NCBI GenBank assembly: GCA_042563375.1
Contig: JBHPMF010000007.1
Location: forward strand, 218-64,217
Direction of reading: 5' to 3'
DNA from: Elusimicrobiota bacterium
Lineage (GTDB): Bacteria; Elusimicrobiota; Elusimicrobia; JACQPE01
DNA length: 64,000 nt
Under the pieces are notes generated by a model. It saw nothing but the letters and a program-made list of their open reading frames with translations. It was not told where the DNA came from and ran no database searches. Below, piece after piece: positions 1-54,174 of this stretch (positions are counted from its first letter, which is position 1; each line of letters starts with the position of its first letter). A program made the position numbers and the translations under genes.

Positions 1-2
1 GT

Positions 3-845
3 TTTGCCTGGGTTCTCATTCCAAACCACATACACCTTTGCGTAAGATCAGGTCCAAAAGGCATTGCTCCTTTGATGAGAAGTGTTTTAACAGGACATGC
101 CAATTACTTTAACAAGAAATACGAGCGAGTAGGACATCTTTTTCAGAATAGATATAAGTCAAAAATCTGTGAAGATGAAGCCCAGCTTTTTTGCCTCATA
201 CGCTACATTCATTCAAATCCTTTACGAGCGGGCTTCGTTGAGTCTGTAAGCAGACTGAGCGCGTATCCATGGAGCGGGCATTCATCGATTATGGGGCTCG
301 GCAGCATGCCATGGCAGGATGTAAATGCAGTACTCCTGGAATTTGGCGATACGCATAAAAAAGCCAGGAGAGCGTATACGCAATTCTTGCGACAAGACGA
401 GGCAGAAGACGACATTAAAAAGTTTGGAATGTTCTCAAGCGTGCAGAACAATTCTGCTGATGATGACCTGGTTCTCAGTAAAAACGATCTCGCGCAATCC
501 ATCCTTGAAAAAGCCGAAGAGAGAATGGAAATAAGCAACAAACTGTCCAGGCTAAGCATAGAGGAAATAGTGCGCCTGATCTCGCAAAAGCATGAAATAC
601 CGTATTACAAATTGCTTATCAAAGGACGCAAACTAAACATCTCTAAAGCCAAAGCTGAATTAATATATATAGGAACAGAATATCTAGGCAAAAGCCTGCA
701 GGAAATGGCTGGCTTGACCAAAATGACCAAGCAGTCAGCATATAATGCCAGCCTTCGAGCGCACCAGGCTTTTGACCCGGGGACGTTGTCAGTTTTGTCA
801 GTTTACGCAAGTAAACTGACAAAACTGACAACGTCCCCGGAATAG
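3..845 (+). CDS. REP-associated tyrosine transposase (RAYT, Y1_Tnp/HUH) with C-terminal HTH; 5' end outside window
   Basis: Frame open from base 3: FAWVLIPNHIHL (HUH motif), GHLFQNRYKS, RYIHSNPLRAG (catalytic Tyr), YPWS; C-terminal HTH-like region. Confidence 0.88.
   Translation, partial: FAWVLIPNHIHLCVRSGPKGIAPLMRSVLTGHANYFNKKYERVGHLFQNRYKSKICEDEAQLFCLIRYIHSNPLRAGFVESVSRLSAYPWSGHSSIMGLGSMPWQDVNAVLLEFGDTHKKARRAYTQFLRQDEAEDDIKKFGMFSSVQNNSADDDLVLSKNDLAQSILEKAEERMEISNKLSRLSIEEIVRLISQKHEIPYYKLLIKGRKLNISKAKAELIYIGTEYLGKSLQEMAGLTKMTKQSAYNASLRAHQAFDPGTLSVLSVYASKLTKLTTSPE
777..840. repeat. Perfect 30-bp inverted repeat with GCAA loop at the RAYT 3' end
   Basis: CCGGGGACGTTGTCAGTTTTGTCAGTTTAC-GCAA-GTAAACTGACAAAACTGACAACGTCCCCGG. 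Confidence 0.9.
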
Positions 846-1714: not shown

Positions 1715-2605
1715 ATGGACACAAACGTAAAAGAAAAAGTAGAACATATAGCTGATTCCCTATTGCGAACGGAAAGGATGCCCCATATCTGGTGTCCTTC
1801 CTGCGGAATAGGATCAACAGTGAATTCTTTCGTGTCAGCGCTTGAAAAATCAAAGATCCCAAAGGAAAAGATCGCGGTGGTGTCCGGCATCGGATGCACC
1901 GGGCGCGTTGCAGGATATATCAATCTTGACAGTTTTCACACAACCCACGGAAGAGCAATACCATTTGCCACCGGATTAGCGCTTGGCAATCCTGAGTTGA
2001 AAGTCGTGGTCTACAGCGGCGACGGAGACATAGCAGCTATCGGAGGCAACCACTTTATAAACGCCGCAAGACGCAATATGGATCTCATGGTAGTATGCGT
2101 GAACAATTTCAACTACGCCATGACAGGCGGACAAGTCGCTCCCACAACACCCGAAGAAGCAAGAGCATCGACCGCGCCATATGGCAACTTTGAGAGCTCA
2201 TTTAGCCTGCCGTATCTGGCTGAATCATGCGGAGCCACTTATGTTGCCCGGTGGACAACGATCCATATCAGGCAGATAACAAACGCCATGACAGAGATGC
2301 TCAACAAAAAAGGTTTCAGATTCCTTGAGATCATCGCCCAATGCCCCACGCTTTTTTTAAGGCTAAACAAGCTAGGAGAAGGTCTTGATGAGCTGGATTA
2401 TTATGAGAAAAACTGCGAACTGCAAAACGGGGCTGACACCAAGACAGTCGGCATCGACTTCAAGGGCAAGATCATCGTAGGAAAATTCGTGGACAAGCCC
2501 AAACCCACGCACCTTGACAACATGAACAATCATTTGAGCAAGATCGTCGGGAGTAAATATGTATGGTGGGGACCGAAGAAAGAAGATAAGGCGATGAGGA
2601 GATGA
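1715..2605 (+). CDS. korB: 2-oxoacid:ferredoxin oxidoreductase beta subunit (TPP-binding)
   Basis: WCPSCG, SGIGC, HTTHGRA, GDGD...NN..Y.MTGGQ.APTTP. Confidence 0.92.
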   Translation: MDTNVKEKVEHIADSLLRTERMPHIWCPSCGIGSTVNSFVSALEKSKIPKEKIAVVSGIGCTGRVAGYINLDSFHTTHGRAIPFATGLALGNPELKVVVYSGDGDIAAIGGNHFINAARRNMDLMVVCVNNFNYAMTGGQVAPTTPEEARASTAPYGNFESSFSLPYLAESCGATYVARWTTIHIRQITNAMTEMLNKKGFRFLEIIAQCPTLFLRLNKLGEGLDELDYYEKNCELQNGADTKTVGIDFKGKIIVGKFVDKPKPTHLDNMNNHLSKIVGSKYVWWGPKKEDKAMRR

Positions 2606-2653
2606 GGCGATGAGGAGAAAAGATATAAAAACAAGATATAAGAGGGTATTTAA

Positions 2654-35738: not shown

Positions 35739-36500
35739 TTATTTATCCCTTAAATCCACTATCAAAGTGTCTTTTGGAAAATTCCTGCTGAACACGCTGT
35801 CATTAAAATCAGTGTTTAGTTTTAATCCTGAGATCGTAACTGTTATCTGAAGATTTTCAGCAAACAATTTTAGCCCTCGCGGCTCGCCGCCGGGAAACCC
35901 GAACTCAAATTCAAATGAATAGGAACCGCTGCCTGCTTTTGGAGTTGCGATAAGCTTTATCGAACTCTCACGCGAATCTTTTAACTTGCCCTTCTTCTCG
36001 GCATCGCTGCCTTTTCCCGCCGAACGCTTTCCGTCCTTGGCAGAGCCGCCTGCGGGCAAAGAGAAATCAAAGCGCTCCCGAATCTTCCAGATATCGTTTA
36101 TTACCGGCAGATTCATAAACGCCATGGTATGCTTTTCGCTGAAATCCTGCAGCTTCTGGATCACTACCTGGTCAAGCATAACATCATAAAAATAGATAAC
36201 GTCTTTATCAAGAAACACTTTAGCTTTCGCTCCGCCCTTATAATCAATGCGCGCAAGATCGCGCTTTTTATCCAGATATACTTTGCCCGAGATCTTCTCT
36301 TTTTCATTGGTGGGCAAAAGAACGATCTCCTCCTCAAAACGCAGCTGCGCGCGCTCGATCGAATCTTCGAAAGCCTTTACTCTCTCAAGAACAGTGGTAG
36401 TGGTAACATCTACGGCATAGAGATAAGGCACTGAGCCACTAAGGCACTGAGCCACTAAGGCACTGAACAAAATAAGGAAAAATGCTTTATTTCTTCTCAT
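35739..36500 (-). CDS. lolA: Outer-membrane lipoprotein carrier LolA-like protein
   Basis: Signal peptide, SGKVY...RIDY, YFYD..LDQV, C-terminal N...DSVF...P; ftsK-lolA-rodZ synteny. Confidence 0.7.
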   Translation of the reverse strand: MRRNKAFFLILFSALVAQCLSGSVPYLYAVDVTTTTVLERVKAFEDSIERAQLRFEEEIVLLPTNEKEKISGKVYLDKKRDLARIDYKGGAKAKVFLDKDVIYFYDVMLDQVVIQKLQDFSEKHTMAFMNLPVINDIWKIRERFDFSLPAGGSAKDGKRSAGKGSDAEKKGKLKDSRESSIKLIATPKAGSGSYSFEFEFGFPGGEPRGLKLFAENLQITVTISGLKLNTDFNDSVFSRNFPKDTLIVDLRDK

Positions 36501-36564
36501 TTAATTTCATCTTTTTTCTTAATTTCCCCACTTAGTGCCTTTGTGGCTCAGTGGCTTTGTGCCT
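36427..36564. repeat. GTG(C/G)CT(T/C)A octamer-periodic inverted repeat spanning lolA start
   Basis: AGGCACTGAGCCACTAAGGCACTGAGCCACTAAGGCACT ... AGTGCCTTTGTGGCTCAGTGGCTTTGTGCCT; family also at 53379-53414. Confidence 0.75.
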
Positions 36565-39724: not shown

Positions 39725-41968
39725 TTATCTGTGCTGCCGCGGAGGAGGCCTCCTGCCCTGCGGAGGGGGACGCCTGTCTTTATCTCGATAATTCGGCTTA
39801 AGTCCAAAACCGCGGTGTGGTGATGATGAAGATGATGCGGACGAAGTTTCCTTCTCATCCGAAGGATAGAGTACTGCTCTTCTGGAAAGTCTTACTTTCC
39901 CGGAATTGTCCATATCAATGACCTTGACCTCTATCTCTTCACCAACACTCAGAGCTTCGCTCGCGTGGCGCAGACGCTTGTTGCTGATCTCTGATATATG
40001 AAGCAGTCCCTCACGGCCGGGGGCGAGTTCCACGAATACTCCGAAATCCAAGATGGAAACGACCCTGCCCTGATAGATCTTCCCGATCTCAAACTCCATG
40101 GTCAGTGAACCCACGATCCTTTTCGCATGATCAACAGATGTGTCATCCTTTCCGCTGATGAATACTCTGCCGTCATCGTCCACCTCGATCTCTGTTTCAG
40201 TATCTTCCATGATCTTGCGTATATTCTTGCCGCCGGGACCGATCAAAGCTCCGATCTTCTCCGCCGGGATCATGACCATCACGATCTTTGGAGCGTATAT
40301 TGAAAGAGAATTTCGAGGAGCAGATATCGCCTGGATCATCTTATCGAGTATTGTAAGCCTGCCAAGCCTGGCATTCTCCAAAGCTGACTGTATGATCTCC
40401 ACTGTCACGCCGGGAACCTTCACGTCCATCTGAATGGCTGTGACCCCGGAACGAGTCCCGGCTACTTTGAAATCCATGTCTCCAAAATGATCTTCCGCTC
40501 CCATGATATCAGTGAGTATTATGGGGGCGCCGTTGTCGCGCATGATAAGCCCCATTGCAATACCGCCGACATGATCCGACACCGGAACCCCGGCATCATA
40601 AAGAGCCAAAGAACCTCCGCACGTGCTTGCCATGGAAGTCGAACCGTTCGATGACAGGATGTCTGAGACAACGCGGATCGTATACGGGAAAGCCTCTTCC
40701 TTTGGAAGCAGCGGGGCCAAACCTTTCCTTGCCAAGTGCCCGTGGCCTATCTCCCTTCTTCCGGGGCCGCGCTCAGCCCTGGGCTCTCCCACGGAAAATC
40801 CCGGGAAGTTATAATGGAACAAGAAGCGTTCTTTATAGTCGCCTTCCAGCTCTTCCATGCGCTGCATATCCCTGGAAGTACCCAATGTGACTGTTGCCAA
40901 AGCCTGCGTTTGTCCGCGTGTGAATATTGCTGATCCATGGGTGCGCGGCAGCACTCCGATCTCGCAGGTGATATGCCTGATATCATCAGGCTTCCTTCCA
41001 TCAAGACGTATACCGTCTTTCTCAAGACGCTTTCTCGCTTCAGCATCGAATATATCATGAACGATCCCCGACACCTGAGGGAGCGCATCTTTGAACTTTT
41101 CCTTAAGAGCCTCTTTAGCCTGGTCGCCCAAGGCGCGCACTTCCTTATCAAGAAGATCCTTGGGAAGATTTTTGGCTATGATCTCGCGCAGTTTCGCGCC
41201 TGCGAAAGAATCGACTTCAGCCTTCAACTTCTCATCGCATGACAATTTCTCAAAATTGAATTTTGGTTTTCCGATCTTGGAACGCATCTCATTCTGCAGA
41301 TCCGTCAGCTTCCCTATCTCGGTCAATCCAAAATTAACAGCCGCAAGGATGACATCCTCCGATAATATAGTGGCTTTGCCCTCGACCATTACAATAGAGC
41401 CGGATCTGCCTGATATGACGATATCAAGATCACTGCCCTGCAATTCATTGAACGTGGGGTTAACTATAAAATTTGAACCGATCCTGGCTACCCTGACAGC
41501 TCCGACAGGCCCGTCAAACGGGATATCAGAAATGGCAAGCGCGCAGCTTGAGCCTACAATACTCAATACATCAGCGTCATTCTCACCGTCTGAGGAAAGC
41601 ACCATGTTCTGGACCATGACCTCATTGGCAAAACCCTTGGGAAACAGCGGGCGGAGACTCCTGTCAGTCAGCCTGCACGCCAGGATCTCACCCTCCCTTG
41701 GCCGCCCCTCTCTTTTGAAAAATCCGCCCGGGATCTTGCCCATGGCATAAGTCCTTTCCCTGTAGTCAATGGTCAGAGGAAAAAACGATGCACCTTCTTT
41801 TGGCTTGGTAGACGCGACCGCTGCGCTGAGCACGACCGTGCCGCCCATCTTCGTCATAACAGCTCCGTTGGCGAACTGCGCCACGGATCCTGTCTCGAAT
41901 GTCATTGTCTTTCCGCCAAGATCAACGGAAAATTGCATAAATTTTGTTTGTCCCATTTTATTTGTCAC
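39725..41968 (-). CDS. pnp: Polyribonucleotide nucleotidyltransferase
   Basis: FFPLTIDYRE, GKIPGGFFKREG, R.HGSA.FTRGQTQ, RREIGHG, SNGSTSMAS, GDMDFKVAG, KH and S1 domains. Confidence 0.97.
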   Translation of the reverse strand: MTNKMGQTKFMQFSVDLGGKTMTFETGSVAQFANGAVMTKMGGTVVLSAAVASTKPKEGASFFPLTIDYRERTYAMGKIPGGFFKREGRPREGEILACRLTDRSLRPLFPKGFANEVMVQNMVLSSDGENDADVLSIVGSSCALAISDIPFDGPVGAVRVARIGSNFIVNPTFNELQGSDLDIVISGRSGSIVMVEGKATILSEDVILAAVNFGLTEIGKLTDLQNEMRSKIGKPKFNFEKLSCDEKLKAEVDSFAGAKLREIIAKNLPKDLLDKEVRALGDQAKEALKEKFKDALPQVSGIVHDIFDAEARKRLEKDGIRLDGRKPDDIRHITCEIGVLPRTHGSAIFTRGQTQALATVTLGTSRDMQRMEELEGDYKERFLFHYNFPGFSVGEPRAERGPGRREIGHGHLARKGLAPLLPKEEAFPYTIRVVSDILSSNGSTSMASTCGGSLALYDAGVPVSDHVGGIAMGLIMRDNGAPIILTDIMGAEDHFGDMDFKVAGTRSGVTAIQMDVKVPGVTVEIIQSALENARLGRLTILDKMIQAISAPRNSLSIYAPKIVMVMIPAEKIGALIGPGGKNIRKIMEDTETEIEVDDDGRVFISGKDDTSVDHAKRIVGSLTMEFEIGKIYQGRVVSILDFGVFVELAPGREGLLHISEISNKRLRHASEALSVGEEIEVKVIDMDNSGKVRLSRRAVLYPSDEKETSSASSSSSPHRGFGLKPNYRDKDRRPPPQGRRPPPRQHR

Positions 41969-42104: not shown

Positions 42105-42368
42105 CTATTTCAGATCAAAATCGCAAGCAATCTTTTCATACGCAGGAGAATCCGTTCTTTTTATGTATTTAAGCAATGCCCTTCTTCTGCCTACTAGCTT
42201 GAGCAGGCCACGACGGGAAGAATGGTCCCTTTTAAACCCTTTTAAATGTTCGTTCAGCATCTCTATGCGCCTTGTCAAAAGCGCGATCTGGACAGCAGCT
42301 GAACCTGTGTTTGTGGGTTCGGGCGAATATCTCCGAACGATTTCTGATTTCATTTTTTTATCTAACAT
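42105..42368 (-). CDS. rpsO: 30S ribosomal protein S15
   Basis: NTGS..VQIALLT.RI..LNEHL....DHSSRRGLLKLVG.RR.LL.Y. Confidence 0.96.
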   Translation of the reverse strand: MLDKKMKSEIVRRYSPEPTNTGSAAVQIALLTRRIEMLNEHLKGFKRDHSSRRGLLKLVGRRRALLKYIKRTDSPAYEKIACDFDLK

Positions 42369-43644
42369 TTCCTCTCTCTCTTACTTTCATTATATCTTTT
42401 AATATCTGGTTTCGCAGCTCATTAAAATTCTTAAAGCGCTTTTCTTCGCGGATCTTCTCGGTCAGCTCAATAGCCAGATGCCGGCCATAAAGGTCCCCGT
42501 GGAAGTCGAGGATGTGGGCCTCCACCGTAACAGAATGATGATGCGATGAAGATGGAGAAGCGAACCCCTCTTTTCTCATCATCTCATCATCTCCTGATCT
42601 CCTCATCATATTCTTCAGTGTTGGCTTCGTCCCTATATTAACCACAGCTTCCTTGTTTAAACCGGGTATCCACGCCTTAAAAACGCCTAAAGGGAGCATC
42701 TTGTTTGCGGGTACCTCTATATTGGCGGTTGGAGCGCCGAGGAATTTTCCTGCCAGCTTGTTGCCGAATACCACTTTTCCTGAAATGGGGTAATAATGGC
42801 CAAGCAGATCAAGAGATTCCTTAAAATCCCCGTCAGTCACATAGCCCCTGATACGGCTTGAAGAAATAGGCGAACCATTGCGCTTCATGCCGACTTTGAT
42901 AATTTCCAGATCTCTATTGCATGCGCTGTCTTTGACACGATAACATTTCACGCCATTGTCCTCACTATGGCTTGCCGGATTCCTTGCCTCGTTCTCACTG
43001 GTAAGGTACTTAACCGAGAACTCCCGGTTCTTTCCCATTGAAAAATTATCACCGCACACAAGAACACGGGCATTCCATTTGCCAATCACATAATCATTGA
43101 TGAAGTCCAGGGCAGAGGTGCTGAAGAAATCCGCATCAGTCGGCAGGACAGCGACCCTGTCTATGCCGAATTCCTTTGACAGCAGCTGCCTGCGCTCATC
43201 AATGGTAGTCAATACCCGTGCTCCTGTGCCTGCCTTGTGGCAGGTGTGCCTGCCTTCGGCAGGTGTGCCTATGTGCTGCTGTGCTGCTGTGCTGCTGTTA
43301 ATAGAGGAATTTCCTTTATTAACCGGAGCACGGGAGCACGGGAGCACGGGAGCACAATTCTCATTCACTGGAGCACAATTCAGATACGCTCTTGGAGGAG
43401 CCGGGAACATGGCAACCATGGGCTCGAGATCATATTGCGCTGACACCCCGGAAAGAACATCGAGAACCTTGGCATGCCCCTTATGTATGCCGTCAAATGT
43501 GCCGATCGCGACGACACGACCGGAAGAATGATGAGGCGATGATGTGATGACGGGATGAGGCGAAGAAGACGCAGGAGAAATTGAATCCTCCTTTCTCGTT
43601 ATCTCATCATCTCCTGATCTTCTTGTAATATCCATATTTCTCAT
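42358..43644 (-). CDS. ribF: Bifunctional riboflavin kinase/FAD synthetase with several in-frame palindromic insertions
   Basis: AIGTFDGIHKGH, CGDNF, ISSS.IR, GAPTAN, NIG.KPT, EAHILDF.GDLYG, IR.EK.F; 428 aa versus roughly 310 usual. Confidence 0.92.
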   Translation of the reverse strand: MRNMDITRRSGDDEITRKEDSISPASSSPHPVITSSPHHSSGRVVAIGTFDGIHKGHAKVLDVLSGVSAQYDLEPMVAMFPAPPRAYLNCAPVNENCAPVLPCSRAPVNKGNSSINSSTAAQQHIGTPAEGRHTCHKAGTGARVLTTIDERRQLLSKEFGIDRVAVLPTDADFFSTSALDFINDYVIGKWNARVLVCGDNFSMGKNREFSVKYLTSENEARNPASHSEDNGVKCYRVKDSACNRDLEIIKVGMKRNGSPISSSRIRGYVTDGDFKESLDLLGHYYPISGKVVFGNKLAGKFLGAPTANIEVPANKMLPLGVFKAWIPGLNKEAVVNIGTKPTLKNMMRRSGDDEMMRKEGFASPSSSHHHSVTVEAHILDFHGDLYGRHLAIELTEKIREEKRFKNFNELRNQILKDIMKVRERGNVR

Positions 43645-43646
43645 TA

Positions 43647-44477
43647 TTAACCGGCTATATCTATTAAACTTCGCTCTAAATCTTCTACAGAATTAAGGTC
43701 AGTAAGCGAGGCACTGTCCCCTATATTATACCTTCCTACAGCCTCTCTTGTCAGGTCCTCAAGGTAGCCGATCGTACCCAAACTAAGCGCGAAATCACGC
43801 GCTAAGCTCCTCAGATATGCGCCCTTGCCCACAAGAGCCTCAAAATAAACCCTGGGATGCTTATAATCCAATATCCCGAACTCATAAATATTGACTTTTC
43901 TGGGAGGAATCTCAGGAGTTTCCCCGTTGCGAGCCAGTTTATAAAGCCTCTTTCCCTTGTAATGCAGGGCGCAATATAAAGGGGGCACCTGATCGATCTC
44001 ACCCAAGAACTGTTGCGCTTTTTCTTTAAGTTGCTTTAAGGTAAATGCAACGGCACAATGATGATGCGATGAAGATGGAGAAGCGAAACCCTCTTTTCTC
44101 ATCATCTCATCATCTCCTGATCTCGTTATTATTCTTCCTGTTGGATCCAGAGTATCGGTCGTCTCGCCCAGAAAGATCGTTCCTTTATATCGCTTTTTTG
44201 TATCAGTAAAATCAGAAAATCTTTTTGTGACTTTTCTTCCCAGCATAATAAGCAGAACCCCGTTCGCGAAGGGGTCAAGCGTGCCGGCGTGGCCCACCTT
44301 CGGGCAATGATGATGGGATGATGCGATGACGGGATGATGCGATAAAGAGGAATCCTCTGGGGCTCTCTTTCTCATCATGCCATCATCGCATGACACCCTC
44401 ATCACTCTCTTGATGTGGCGTATCACATCATATGAAGATATGCCCTTGGGCTTATTTACGTTTAGAATTCCTTCCAT
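43647..44477 (-). CDS. truB: tRNA pseudouridine(55) synthase with two in-frame palindromic insertions
   Basis: GILNVNKPKG.SS.DV, KVGHAGTLDPFA.GVL, TDTLD..G, QVPP.Y.A....G.RLY.LAR, KG.YLRSLARD. Confidence 0.93.
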   Translation of the reverse strand: MEGILNVNKPKGISSYDVIRHIKRVMRVSCDDGMMRKRAPEDSSLSHHPVIASSHHHCPKVGHAGTLDPFANGVLLIMLGRKVTKRFSDFTDTKKRYKGTIFLGETTDTLDPTGRIITRSGDDEMMRKEGFASPSSSHHHCAVAFTLKQLKEKAQQFLGEIDQVPPLYCALHYKGKRLYKLARNGETPEIPPRKVNIYEFGILDYKHPRVYFEALVGKGAYLRSLARDFALSLGTIGYLEDLTREAVGRYNIGDSASLTDLNSVEDLERSLIDIAG

Positions 44478-45459
44478 GTTCAATGCTTTTTTTAAATTGT
44501 TTGACAATCATCCGCTCAATACTGTCCATAGAAGTGTTTTTGATCTCAAAGCCCGCGGCGTTTCTGTGGCCGCCGCCATTAAACGCCCTTGCCACCTCAG
44601 ATACGTCAATGCGGCCTTTTGACCTCATCGATACTGATGTGATGCCCTTTCCCCTGAAAGGCTCCTGTTTGAACATAAAAGTGGCTTCCACGCTCTCCGG
44701 AGATAATCCGTAATTCACTATATCATCCGTATCAGCGGGCTCAGGCGCATGGCGCAGGAAGTCCCGTTTTGAAAGCCGCATGCAGGATAATTTCCCGGAT
44801 ACATGGAACTTTATCCCATTAAGAGCCTTGGCCAGGAGTTTCAGATGGCCGATATTCTTTGAGGCGAACATCCTGTTGTAAATCTCCGTATGCTTCACCC
44901 CGGCCTCAAGAAACCCGGCTGCGATCCTGTGGGTAGCCGCAGAAGTAAGCGCATATTGGAAGCACCCGGTATCCGACACCATGCCGGCATAAAGCCATGT
45001 TGACTCCTTGACCGACGGCTTGATCCTCAGATGCTCATAGAGCCTGTATATCTGCTCTGCGTTTGAAGATGCCTTGGGATCGATCCAGTTCACATCAGCA
45101 AAACACCTGCTTGTCTTATGGTGATCGATATTAACGGTTGTCCTGAAATGATTCTCGTATCCGATATTCCCGGCCCTGCGCTTATTGGAGCATTCCAGAA
45201 ATATCGCGCATTCTAAGCCTTGGCAGTCTTGAACAACAGCCGGTGCGATGATTTTTTCTTTGCCAACCATAAATCTGATATGCGGCGGAACAACCGTGGT
45301 GCTGGCAACAATGATTTTTCTTCCCGGACCAAGCCGCCTGATAAGGCTGGCCATGGCAAAGGAGGATGCAAGGGAGTCAGCATCAGGCTTGATATGCCCC
45401 ATGATGGCAAAACTCTTACAAACCTTCAGTATCTTGCAGATACGTTTAATGGGGTCCAT
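44452..45459 (-). CDS. nrnA: DHH-family phosphoesterase (NrnA-like)
   Basis: H..PDADS, NIDHH, SDTG.F, S.RS, FNGGGH.NAAG. Confidence 0.9.
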   Translation of the reverse strand: MDPIKRICKILKVCKSFAIMGHIKPDADSLASSFAMASLIRRLGPGRKIIVASTTVVPPHIRFMVGKEKIIAPAVVQDCQGLECAIFLECSNKRRAGNIGYENHFRTTVNIDHHKTSRCFADVNWIDPKASSNAEQIYRLYEHLRIKPSVKESTWLYAGMVSDTGCFQYALTSAATHRIAAGFLEAGVKHTEIYNRMFASKNIGHLKLLAKALNGIKFHVSGKLSCMRLSKRDFLRHAPEPADTDDIVNYGLSPESVEATFMFKQEPFRGKGITSVSMRSKGRIDVSEVARAFNGGGHRNAAGFEIKNTSMDSIERMIVKQFKKSIEHGRNSKRK

Positions 45460-45922: not shown

Positions 45923-46075
45923 GATCTTAAAAAATGCTAAAGATAGAGAAAACACAGGGCTAAATTATGAATGCTAAAAACAACAGAAGATTTCTTCATT
46001 CTACGCTTTTCTTGTTTTCGTTCTTTCATTCAGCATTTAGCCCTTGATTTTTTTATTTAGCGTTATTTGCTATGC

Positions 46076-54109: not shown

Positions 54110-54174
54110 GTTCTGCTGTGCTCCCGTGCTCCCGTGCTCCCGTTAATAAAGGAAATTCCTCTATCAACAGCATT

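What the first reader, a model, noticed from the sequence alone, without database searches (positions are those of the whole stretch)
42534..44124. Near-identical 68-bp element translated in-frame inside both ribF and truB
Seen in sequence: 42534-42601 and 44057-44124 differ at one base and both encode RSGDDEMMRKEGFASPSSSHHH, once after the RibF kinase NIGTKPT motif and once after the TruB TDTLD motif. Diverged relatives sit at the RibF N-terminus (43527-43629) and just before the TruB catalytic KVGHAGTLDP (44306-44405). All four are in the same orientation and reading frame. Established knowledge: this parallels Rickettsia palindromic elements inserted in coding sequences. Inference: recent local spread into surface loops of housekeeping enzymes, or removal at RNA level.
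Basis: partly seen in the sequence, partly recalled or inferred. Interest (0 to 1): 0.75.

Follow-up and report, generated by a model that had tools for sequence, protein, structure and literature searches.

The report
Hairpin repeats translated inside truB and ribF
Two housekeeping enzymes of an uncultured Elusimicrobiota bacterium carry in-frame copies of a small hairpin-forming repeat that normally sits between genes, adding floppy extra loops much as the palindromic elements of Rickettsia do.

Summary
Bases 42534-42601 and 44057-44124 match at 67 of 68 positions. Diverged copies lie at about 43521-43626 and 44306-44409. All four are read in frame in ribF and truB.

They belong to a repeat family found only in this genome among 41 searched. 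Its arms are tandem 8-nt units (GATGAKGN) around a GAGAAAGA-type loop. Elsewhere the units form mostly four-unit blocks at gene ends, closed by TGA in all three frames. The five translated arms each keep one open frame and carry a TGA-to-TCA variant unit. This argues for translation, not RNA removal.

The inserts are missing from almost all homologues. They are predicted disordered on intact enzyme cores. RibF also holds a 55-residue insert from a second octamer family. Related genera hold different repeats in the same loops.

Verdict: a Rickettsia-palindromic-element-like outcome produced by tandem-unit (simple-sequence-repeat type) hairpins. It is a new variant of known kinds. This scan had already seen the same class in this genome (trmD, PurL) and in many others. 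No read or RNA data were available.

The parts
42358..43644 (-). ribF (bifunctional riboflavin kinase / FAD synthetase), 428 aa, about 115 aa longer than typical homologues
   Evidence: ORF. Pfam Flavokinase 1.8e-28 and FAD_syn 8.6e-26. Homologues are mostly 290-315 aa. 16 invariant columns are kept.
43647..44477 (-). truB (tRNA pseudouridine-55 synthase), 276 aa from the ATG used by the database gene call (286 aa from an upstream TTG at 44507)
   Evidence: ORF. Pfam TruB_N 6.9e-42. P0001 is 276 aa. 28 invariant columns are kept, including the GTLD Asp. The model matches solved TruB structures at Foldseek E 1e-24, TM 0.73.
42532..42617 (-). Element e1: octamer-armed hairpin in frame in the RibF kinase domain, after NIGTKPT. 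Encodes about KNMMRRSGDDEMMRKEGFASPSSSHHHS.
   Evidence: TRF period 8, 4.2 copies at 42574-42607. 0 of 67 homologues fill half of this stretch. pLDDT 53-60.
44055..44138 (-). Element e2: near-identical copy (67 of 68) in frame in TruB after TDTLD
   Evidence: TRF period 8 at 44097-44124. 19-residue gap against T. maritima TruB. pLDDT 50-62.
43521..43626 (-). Element e3: diverged copy forming the 40-residue N-terminal extension of RibF, starting a few codons after the ATG that abuts the truB stop
   Evidence: No in-frame ATG, GTG or TTG lies between the element and GTFDGIHKGH (my reading). pLDDT below 50 for residues 1-39.
44306..44409 (-). Element e4: diverged copy in frame in TruB, ending 3-4 residues before KVGHAGTLDP. 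It is the most stable hairpin (-51 kcal/mol, z -5.9).
   Evidence: It replaces one residue (between residues 28 and 30) of T. maritima TruB. 1 of 73 homologues has 10 or more residues here. pLDDT 56-69.
43219..43383 (-). Second-family insert in RibF (55 aa). It is a compound palindrome of GSAGCACN octamer arrays plus a nested 19-nt repeat.
   Evidence: Alignment. TRF: 43225-43270 period 19, 43272-43298 and 43325-43355 period 8. Copies elsewhere at 92% over 86-88 nt; 26 arrays of this unit in the genome. pLDDT below 50 for residues 97-139.
2593..2616 (+). Solo three-unit GATGAGGN array of the same family, at the end of a 300-aa ORF. It shows the family's usual place at a gene end.
   Evidence: C159 2810-2833 = window 2593-2616.

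Best explanation
The four elements are copies of a dispersed repeat specific to this genome. Its two arms are three to five tandem 8-nt units (GATGAKGN and its complement) around a GAGAAAGA-type loop, with a GAAGAAT / ATTCTTC terminus.

In its usual setting the family sits at gene ends as blocks of mostly four units. Its G-rich strand carries TGA in all three frames, so it caps open reading frames. The opposite strand abuts start codons.

In truB and ribF, complete hairpin copies lie in sense orientation inside the genes and are translated. A TGA-to-TCA change, in the one unit that would otherwise put a stop in frame, leaves a single frame open. The C-rich arm has no stops in any frame. The result is 24-40 extra residues (acidic and Met/Arg-rich, then Ser/His-rich), predicted disordered, at two TruB loops, one RibF loop and the RibF N-terminus. 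The catalytic cores are unchanged.

I read them as tolerated selfish or neutral DNA filtered by selection for an open frame, which is the outcome known from Rickettsia palindromic elements. The near-identical pair reflects a recent copy or gene-conversion event between two sites 1.5 kb apart.

Shown: presence, family membership, frame properties, absence from homologues, disorder prediction.

Inferred: that the inserts are translated, that they are neutral, and how they are copied.
For: - Repeat and hairpins.
- Family census: 7 paired hairpins (4 of them at this locus) and 26 solo arms of 3 or more units. Of the solo arms, 19 have four units, 6 have three and 1 has five.
- Position of solo arms: 8 of 26 hold the stop of an ORF of 100 aa or more; 11 of 26 lie 0-52 nt from the start of an opposite-strand ORF of 150 aa or more.
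- Frames: among 40 G-strand arms, all 25 non-translated solo arms are closed in three frames and have no TCA variant. All 5 translated arms (four here plus one inside a 2134-aa ORF on contig 14) have exactly one open frame and one TCA-variant unit. Of the other 35 arms, 1 has such a variant and 1 has an open frame.
- Lineage-specific: 47 pattern matches in this genome, 0 in 40 relatives, 0 for the reversed control.
- Not ancestral loops: TruB site A is filled with 10 or more residues in 1 of 73 homologues. TruB site B is half-filled in 5 of 73. The RibF middle and C-terminal inserts are half-filled in 0 of 67.
- Cores intact: 28 and 16 invariant columns are kept. AlphaFold mean pLDDT is 88.3 (TruB) and 75.3 (RibF), with low confidence confined to the inserts. 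The TruB model matches solved TruB structures.
- Literature: RPE behaviour as summarised in PMC10969869 (passages read). Heptamer arrays at gene ends, inverted pairs and a four-unit preference in PMC4692102 (passages). Arrays with stops in all frames capping ORFs, and 'reverse' arrays inside ORFs, in PMC4679880 (passages).
Against: - There are no reads, no RNA data and no proteomics. Translation is inferred only from frame integrity.
- Arms inside ORFs must be open by ascertainment. The argument therefore rests on these being conserved, apparently essential genes.
- The hairpin z-score of e1 is weak (-1.75). None of the four reached my strict ungapped hairpin threshold.
- No target-site duplication, no mobilising enzyme and no empty site in a close relative was found, so 'insertion' is not proven against growth in place.
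- TruB site A is a length-variable loop across the whole family (0 to 31 extra residues).
- The genome is a 68%-complete metagenome bin.
Confidence: 0.78

Rival explanations
1. The inserts are adaptive. Either the mRNA hairpins act as processing or stability signals inside the truB-ribF-rpsO-pnp operon, or the acidic / Ser-His-rich loops have gained a function.
For: - Very stable hairpin at e4 (-51 kcal/mol, z -5.9).
- Four copies are concentrated in 1.9 kb of one operon, out of 7 paired copies genome-wide.
- The same loops are occupied by other repeats in related genera: TruB site A in G001 and P0002, the RibF loop in G004.
Against: - Insert sequences are not conserved between genera.
- The inserts are predicted disordered.
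- The family is otherwise found between genes.
- No Rfam family reaches its threshold.
- No terminator-like U-run follows the hairpins (my reading).
Confidence: 0.1
2. The loops grew in place by slippage and local inverted duplication of short units, and were not created by arrival of pre-formed elements.
For: - TruB site A ranges from 0 to 31 extra residues among eight family members.
- The arms are tandem arrays, which are prone to slippage.
- No target-site duplication or transposase link was found.
Against: - Two sites in different genes share 67 of 68 bases.
- The coding copies share the GAAGAAT terminus, the unit and the GAGAAAGA-type loop with intergenic copies on other contigs.
- The middle RibF insert is 92% identical over 86-88 nt to copies on contigs 105 and 109.
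Confidence: 0.05
3. The inserts are removed before or during translation, by RNA excision or by ribosomal bypassing of the hairpin, so the proteins lack them.
For: - All four fold as hairpins in the sense RNA.
- Nothing here measures RNA or protein.
Against: - All five inserts in the two genes are stop-free and keep the frame.
- The canonical arm is closed in all three frames, yet each translated arm has the one TGA-to-TCA change that opens the gene's own frame. This arose in at least three different unit positions.
- No intron or other RNA family matches.
Confidence: 0.04
4. Assembly artefact, or the genes are decaying pseudogenes.
For: - The source is a metagenome bin, 68% complete, in 180 contigs.
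- It contains a 68-nt near-duplicate within 1.5 kb.
Against: - Both ORFs are uninterrupted and every invariant residue is kept.
- The flanks of each insert are unique and collinear with the orthologues.
- Five independent in-frame, stop-free inserts are not expected from chimeric joins or from decay.
Confidence: 0.03

Closest known systems
Rickettsia palindromic elements (RPE-1 to RPE-10; Ogata et al. 2000 and 2002, as summarised in PMC10969869, passages read)
   Same: - Palindromic dispersed repeats inserted in frame in unrelated metabolic and housekeeping genes.
- They encode a family-specific peptide.
- They are compatible with the fold of the host protein.
   Different: - RPEs are about 100-150 bp elements of Rickettsia and are not described as chains of short tandem units.
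- Here the arms are 3-5 copies of an 8-nt unit, the element is 84-106 nt, and the phylum is Elusimicrobiota (phylum name from earlier scan notes).
- Most copies here are half-elements at gene ends.
- No sequence comparison with RPE consensus sequences was possible.
Heptamer/octamer long simple sequence repeats and their inverted pairs: GGGAATC in Xanthomonas and GGGGA(C/T)T in Nostoc (Rehm et al. 2015, PMC4692102, passages read); LSSR of Mrazek et al. 2007 as summarised in PMC4679880
   Same: - Tandem 7-8-nt units with a preference for four units.
- Placed within about 50 nt of stop codons on the sense strand or of starts on the antisense strand.
- Frequent convergent pairs that can form stem-loops.
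- Scattered phylogenetic distribution.
   Different: - Those arrays are reported as under-represented in coding regions and are discussed as G-quadruplex formers.
- The unit here has no run of G tracts.
- Complete inverted pairs here are read through inside essential enzymes.
TAACTGA direct repeats of marine Beggiatoaceae (MacGregor 2015, PMC4679880, passages read)
   Same: - The forward orientation has stops in all three frames and therefore caps ORFs.
- The reverse orientation can lie inside ORFs, mostly at protein termini and once in an RNA polymerase beta-prime-like protein.
- Arrays lie directly upstream of start codons.
   Different: - Those are direct repeats with almost no inverted pairs.
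- No stop-removing variant unit allowing the forward arm to be translated is mentioned in the passages I read.
REP / BIME elements mobilised by RAYT (Y1) transposases; GTAG- and CGTC-tagged REPs (Di Nocera et al. 2013, PMC3733652, abstract seen in the listing)
   Same: - Small palindromic repeats that are mostly extragenic.
- The genome encodes two RAYT-like Y1 transposase proteins.
   Different: - The GATGAKGN family has no GTAG or CGTC head (my reading of the sequence).
- The RAYT-like gene on this contig ends in a hairpin of a different family.
- The arms are tandem arrays, not a single 20-40 bp palindrome.

Membership tests
Rickettsia palindromic elements (RPE) | Sequence homology to one of the RPE family consensus sequences; found in Rickettsia | not testable with these tools
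   No RPE consensus was available from any tool. The host is an Elusimicrobiota bin (notes; a RibF homologue is so named). Homology is very unlikely.
Rickettsia palindromic elements (RPE) | Palindromic repeat inserted in frame in protein-coding genes and encoding a conserved peptide | tested here: met
   This is the same behaviour, not family membership.
MITE (miniature inverted-repeat transposable element) | Terminal inverted repeats, target-site duplication, and a related autonomous IS | tested here: inconclusive
   The whole element is an inverted repeat. No duplication is visible at the e1 or e2 flanks. Empty sites in relatives are too diverged to define boundaries. No parent IS was identified.
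REP / RAYT system | 20-40 bp palindrome with a GTAG or CGTC head; REPs flank the RAYT gene | tested here: not met
   The family consensus is GAAGAAT-(GATGAKGN)n-GAGAAAGA, without such a head. Two Y1_Tnp plus DnaA_C-like proteins exist, but the one on this contig overlaps a different palindrome family.
Long simple sequence repeats with 5-11-nt units, and their inverted pairs | Head-to-tail iterations of a 7-8-nt unit, three or more copies, far above chance | tested here: met
   TRF period 8 with 3.5-4.4 copies in all four elements. 47 pattern matches against 0 for the reversed control.
Long simple sequence repeats with 5-11-nt units, and their inverted pairs | Placed within about 50 nt of gene ends, preference for four units, convergent pairs | tested here: met
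   19 of 26 solo arms have four units. 8 of 26 hold an ORF stop and 11 of 26 lie 0-52 nt from an opposite-strand start. There are 7 paired copies. The ORFs were not validated as genes.
Self-splicing intron / intein / translational bypass element | Removed from the RNA or protein; no need for an open frame (introns, bypass), or splicing motifs (inteins) | tested here: not met
   No Rfam intron family matches. The inserts are 24-55 aa of low-complexity sequence with no intein-sized domain. All are open and in frame, with stop-removing changes. Removal itself cannot be measured here.

The most novel reading that the evidence does not exclude
Tandem-unit hairpins may be one widespread, still undescribed class of genetic element with its own copying mechanism: arms made of a 7-8-nt unit specific to each lineage, about four units long. 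Each genus in this family has its own unit (GATGAKGN here, GGGGTSA in G004). These elements repeatedly seed the same permissive loops of essential enzymes. If so, they are a general source of new disordered protein segments across uncultured phyla, and are not just scattered slippage products.
Probability: 0.2. Interest if true: 0.7.

Novelty: new variant of a known kind. Interest (0 to 1): 0.4.

Why it matters
This locus shows how non-triplet repeat DNA that normally ends genes can become part of essential proteins. One base change per arm (TGA to TCA) turns a stop-laden array into a readable loop. Two conserved enzymes tolerate five such inserts, one of them ten residues before the catalytic aspartate of TruB.

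Together with the different repeats found in the same loops of related genera, it gives a concrete, testable case for repeat-driven growth of protein loops outside Rickettsia.

It also matters for annotation. Such inserts lengthen proteins, split homology matches and can be mistaken for errors.

Tried and rejected
- Sequencing runs: none was listed for 42300-44700 and no RNA holder was listed. Read support and excision are therefore untested.
- Close relatives in metagenome contigs: 173 pattern matches, none confirmed as a TruB relative. Presence or absence of the inserts within the species is untested.
- Rfam at E up to 1: only sub-threshold microRNA-precursor look-alikes, meaning generic hairpins.
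- RAYT link: two Y1_Tnp proteins were found, but nothing ties them to this family.
- Strict ungapped hairpin census (score 18 or more): 180 centres, 166 after merging, against 0 in a mononucleotide shuffle. This shows the genome is full of palindromic families. None of the four elements passed this threshold, because their stems have a mismatch about every eighth base.
- I first took the TCA in the second arm of the G004 RibF hairpin as a coding adaptation. I rejected this because the GGGGTCA / TCACCCC pairing is the standard form of that family throughout G004.
- Looking up earlier scan notes by sequence found nothing.
The stretches were then taken by alignment coordinates instead.
Full report
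**Observation.** The window lies on contig 159 of a 2.97-Mb metagenome bin with 180 contigs, rated 68% complete. Earlier notes of this scan call it Elusimicrobiota. On the minus strand sit truB (43647-44507 from a TTG; 276 aa from the ATG at 44477, as in the database gene call P0001) and ribF (42358-43644, 428 aa). They are followed by rpsO and pnp.

The repeat finder returns a four-member direct-repeat family. The members are 42531-42609, 44054-44132 (94% identical to the first), 43551-43629 (70%) and 44327-44405 (62%). A second block is shared by 43527-43569 and 44306-44348. The core 42534-42601 versus 44057-44124 matches at 67 of 68 bases. The one difference is a synonymous Gly codon. The 60 nt on either side match at 19 of 60 and 15 of 60, which is chance level.

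**Anatomy.** Each copy folds as an imperfect hairpin in the sense RNA. Energies are -27.8, -29.3, -36.0 and -51.2 kcal/mol, with z-scores of -1.75, -3.08, -2.68 and -5.91 against shuffles. Tandem Repeats Finder shows that every arm is an 8-nt tandem array of 3.5-4.4 copies. The element reads GAAGAAT, then three to five units of GATGAKGN, then a GAGAAAGA-type loop, then the complementary units, then ATTCTTC.

**The family in the genome.** A profile built from the four copies finds about 41 loci at E up to 1, the weaker ones being doubtful. A unit-based census gives 7 paired hairpins, 4 of which are the ones under study, and 26 solo arms of three or more units.
- Of the solo arms, 19 have four units, 6 have three and 1 has five.
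- 8 of 26 contain the stop codon of an ORF of 100 aa or more on the G-rich strand.
- 11 of 26 lie 0-52 nt from the start of an ORF of 150 aa or more on the other strand. One abuts a start followed by MTPKIGLEIHVQL, which I recall as a GatB-type N-terminus. These ORFs were not otherwise validated as genes.

This is the placement, unit number and inverted pairing described for heptamer arrays in Xanthomonas and Nostoc (PMC4692102, passages). The logic of stops in all frames matches that described for TAACTGA arrays in Beggiatoaceae (PMC4679880, passages).

**Why one frame, and why translation is likely.** Eight is not a multiple of three, so three consecutive GATGA units put TGA into all three frames. 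I examined 40 G-strand arms.
- All 25 non-translated solo arms are closed in three frames and carry no TCA variant.
- The five arms read by long ORFs each have exactly one open frame and exactly one variant unit (GATCAGG, or GTCATGC) at the position where the gene's frame would meet TGA. These are the four at this locus and one at residues 1267-1291 of a 2134-aa ORF on contig 14 that has weak M16-peptidase matches (only one above Pfam's cut-off).
- Among the other 35 arms, one has a GATCA unit but is still closed, and one antisense arm has an open frame.
- The variant sits in different unit positions in e1/e2/e3, in e4 and in the contig-14 copy, so it arose at least three times.

The complementary arm has no stop in any frame. 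An element spliced out or bypassed would not need these changes. This is inference from sequence; no RNA or protein data exist.

**The inserts are additions, not ancestral loops.** I aligned TruB and RibF from 19 relatives' loci, then from two more family members. I also aligned 73 and 67 database homologues. One search gives the occupancy of each insert stretch:
- TruB site A (32 residues): 10 or more residues in 1 of 73 homologues.
- TruB site B (24 residues): at least half filled in 5 of 73.
- RibF N-terminal 40 residues: at least half filled in 1 of 67.
- RibF middle insert (55 residues): at least half filled in 0 of 67.
- RibF C-terminal insert (28 residues): at least half filled in 0 of 67.

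All 28 invariant TruB columns, including the GTLD aspartate, and all 16 invariant RibF columns are kept. Against T. maritima TruB, site A replaces one residue between positions 28 and 30, about ten residues before the aspartate of the GTLD motif. Site B is a 19-residue gap.

AlphaFold models give mean pLDDT 88.3 for TruB. Blocks covering the inserts score 50-69 and the rest is mostly above 90. RibF has mean pLDDT 75.3, with residues 1-39, 97-139 and 241-251 below 50 and 341-370 at 53-60. The TruB model matches solved TruB structures at E 1e-24 and TM 0.73 normalised on the query.

RibF has no in-frame start codon between e3 and the GTFDGIHKGH motif (my reading). Its N-terminal 40 residues must therefore be made if the gene is expressed.

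**A fifth insert.** The 55-residue block in the middle of RibF is a compound palindrome of a second octamer family (GSAGCACN) with a nested 19-nt repeat. The genome has 26 arrays of this unit. Copies on contigs 105 and 109 are 92% identical to it over 86-88 nt.

**Distribution.** Three GATGAKGN units in a row occur 47 times in this genome and 0 times in 40 relatives of the same family and class. The reversed control gives 0. I looked at 80 of them. By their record titles they come from Bacteroidota, Cyanobacteria, Planctomycetota, Acidobacteriota, Chloroflexota and others. Often the array faces a complementary arm or an array of a different unit. The unit is therefore not unique to this organism, but within its own family this genome alone has it.

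The relative G004 has its own family, with 69 matches of three GGGGTSA units against 0 here. One member, a four-unit hairpin, sits in the same RibF loop as e1. TruB site A carries 0 to 31 extra residues among eight family members, with unrelated sequences in G001 and in the closest database homologue P0002. Either these loops are simply the permissive places, or an old insert is overwritten by whichever family is active. I cannot tell which.

**How the near-identical pair arose.** Identity ends inside the element. Both copies keep a GAAGAAT terminus, but the outermost unit differs and is offset by 2 nt (my reading). That fits gene conversion between two older copies at least as well as a fresh insertion. 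I found no target-site duplication.

Two RAYT-like proteins (Y1_Tnp plus a weak, sub-threshold DnaA_C-like helix-turn-helix match) exist, one at the start of this contig. The palindrome overlapping that gene's 3' end belongs to another family, and the GATGA family has no GTAG or CGTC head. The copying mechanism remains unknown.

**Context and novelty.** A strict census finds 166 long palindromes in this genome against 0 in a shuffle. They fall into many families, and some lie inside very long ORFs. This scan had already reported in-frame hairpins in trmD and PurL of this same genome and the 7-8-nt unit theme. It had also reported the same class in other genomes; 63 notes match my word search.

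In print I found three things: the RPE precedent, heptamer arrays and their inverted pairs, and TAACTGA arrays occasionally inside ORFs. My three searches turned up no description of octamer-armed hairpins translated inside essential enzymes through a stop-removing unit, nor anything on such repeats in Elusimicrobiota. Those searches were narrow.

I rate it a new variant of known kinds, of moderate interest. The main open points are direct evidence of translation and the copying mechanism.

Noticed in passing
window 1-845 (+), = contig 159 67-1062; palindrome at window 777-840: A 331-aa RAYT-like protein (Y1_Tnp 1.3e-09 plus a weak, sub-threshold DnaA_C-like helix-turn-helix match). Its last codons run into a perfect 64-nt palindrome of another family (GGGGACGT head, TGTCAGTT units). 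A second such gene lies on contig 4.
   Followed up: partly
window 45949-46051 and 36425-36564: Two more hairpins. One lies between the rbfA-like ORF and infB (42-nt arms, 71% complementary). The other is built from TAAGGCAC octamers.
   Followed up: no
G004 genome; RibF hairpin in L003 (G004:C65 about 106551-106628): G004 has its own family. A (GGGGTCA)n arm is regularly paired with (TCACCCC)n, not with the exact complement. This gives one C-C mismatch per unit, leaves one strand free of stops in both arms, and puts TGA in both arms of the other strand. There are 69 three-unit matches in G004 and 0 in G000.
   Followed up: partly
loci L030-L109 (public genomes): GATGAKGN octamer arrays occur in many phyla. 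Several genomes hold many loci (for example a Baaleninema bin and an Oscillochloris bin). The array is often followed by an array of a quite different 7-8-nt unit and not by its own complement.
   Followed up: partly
genome-wide, 26 solo arms: Four units is the dominant array size (19 of 26), although this unit has no G tracts. The G-quadruplex explanation offered for the four-unit preference in Xanthomonas (PMC4692102) cannot apply here.
   Followed up: no
contig 14, 3800-3872 (L023); contig 47, 167-198 (L024): The same family also lies in frame inside two very long ORFs. One is 2134 aa with weak M16-peptidase matches (only one above Pfam's cut-off) downstream of the element. The other is 1239 aa with ankyrin repeats.
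   Followed up: partly
window 54118-54172 (contig 159 54335-54389): Another copy of the second (GSAGCACN) family, 96% identical over 55 nt to the RibF middle insert.
   Followed up: no
window 39725-39870 (3' end of pnp): The PNPase ORF ends in a Ser-rich, then Arg/Pro-rich low-complexity tail after the S1 domain. I did not check whether it derives from a repeat.
   Followed up: no
RibF residues about 212-226 and 236-250 (window about 42895-43010): Two further short RibF-specific insertions (15 residues each, against a median of 6 and 3 in homologues). The second has pLDDT below 50. They show no obvious repeat structure.
   Followed up: no
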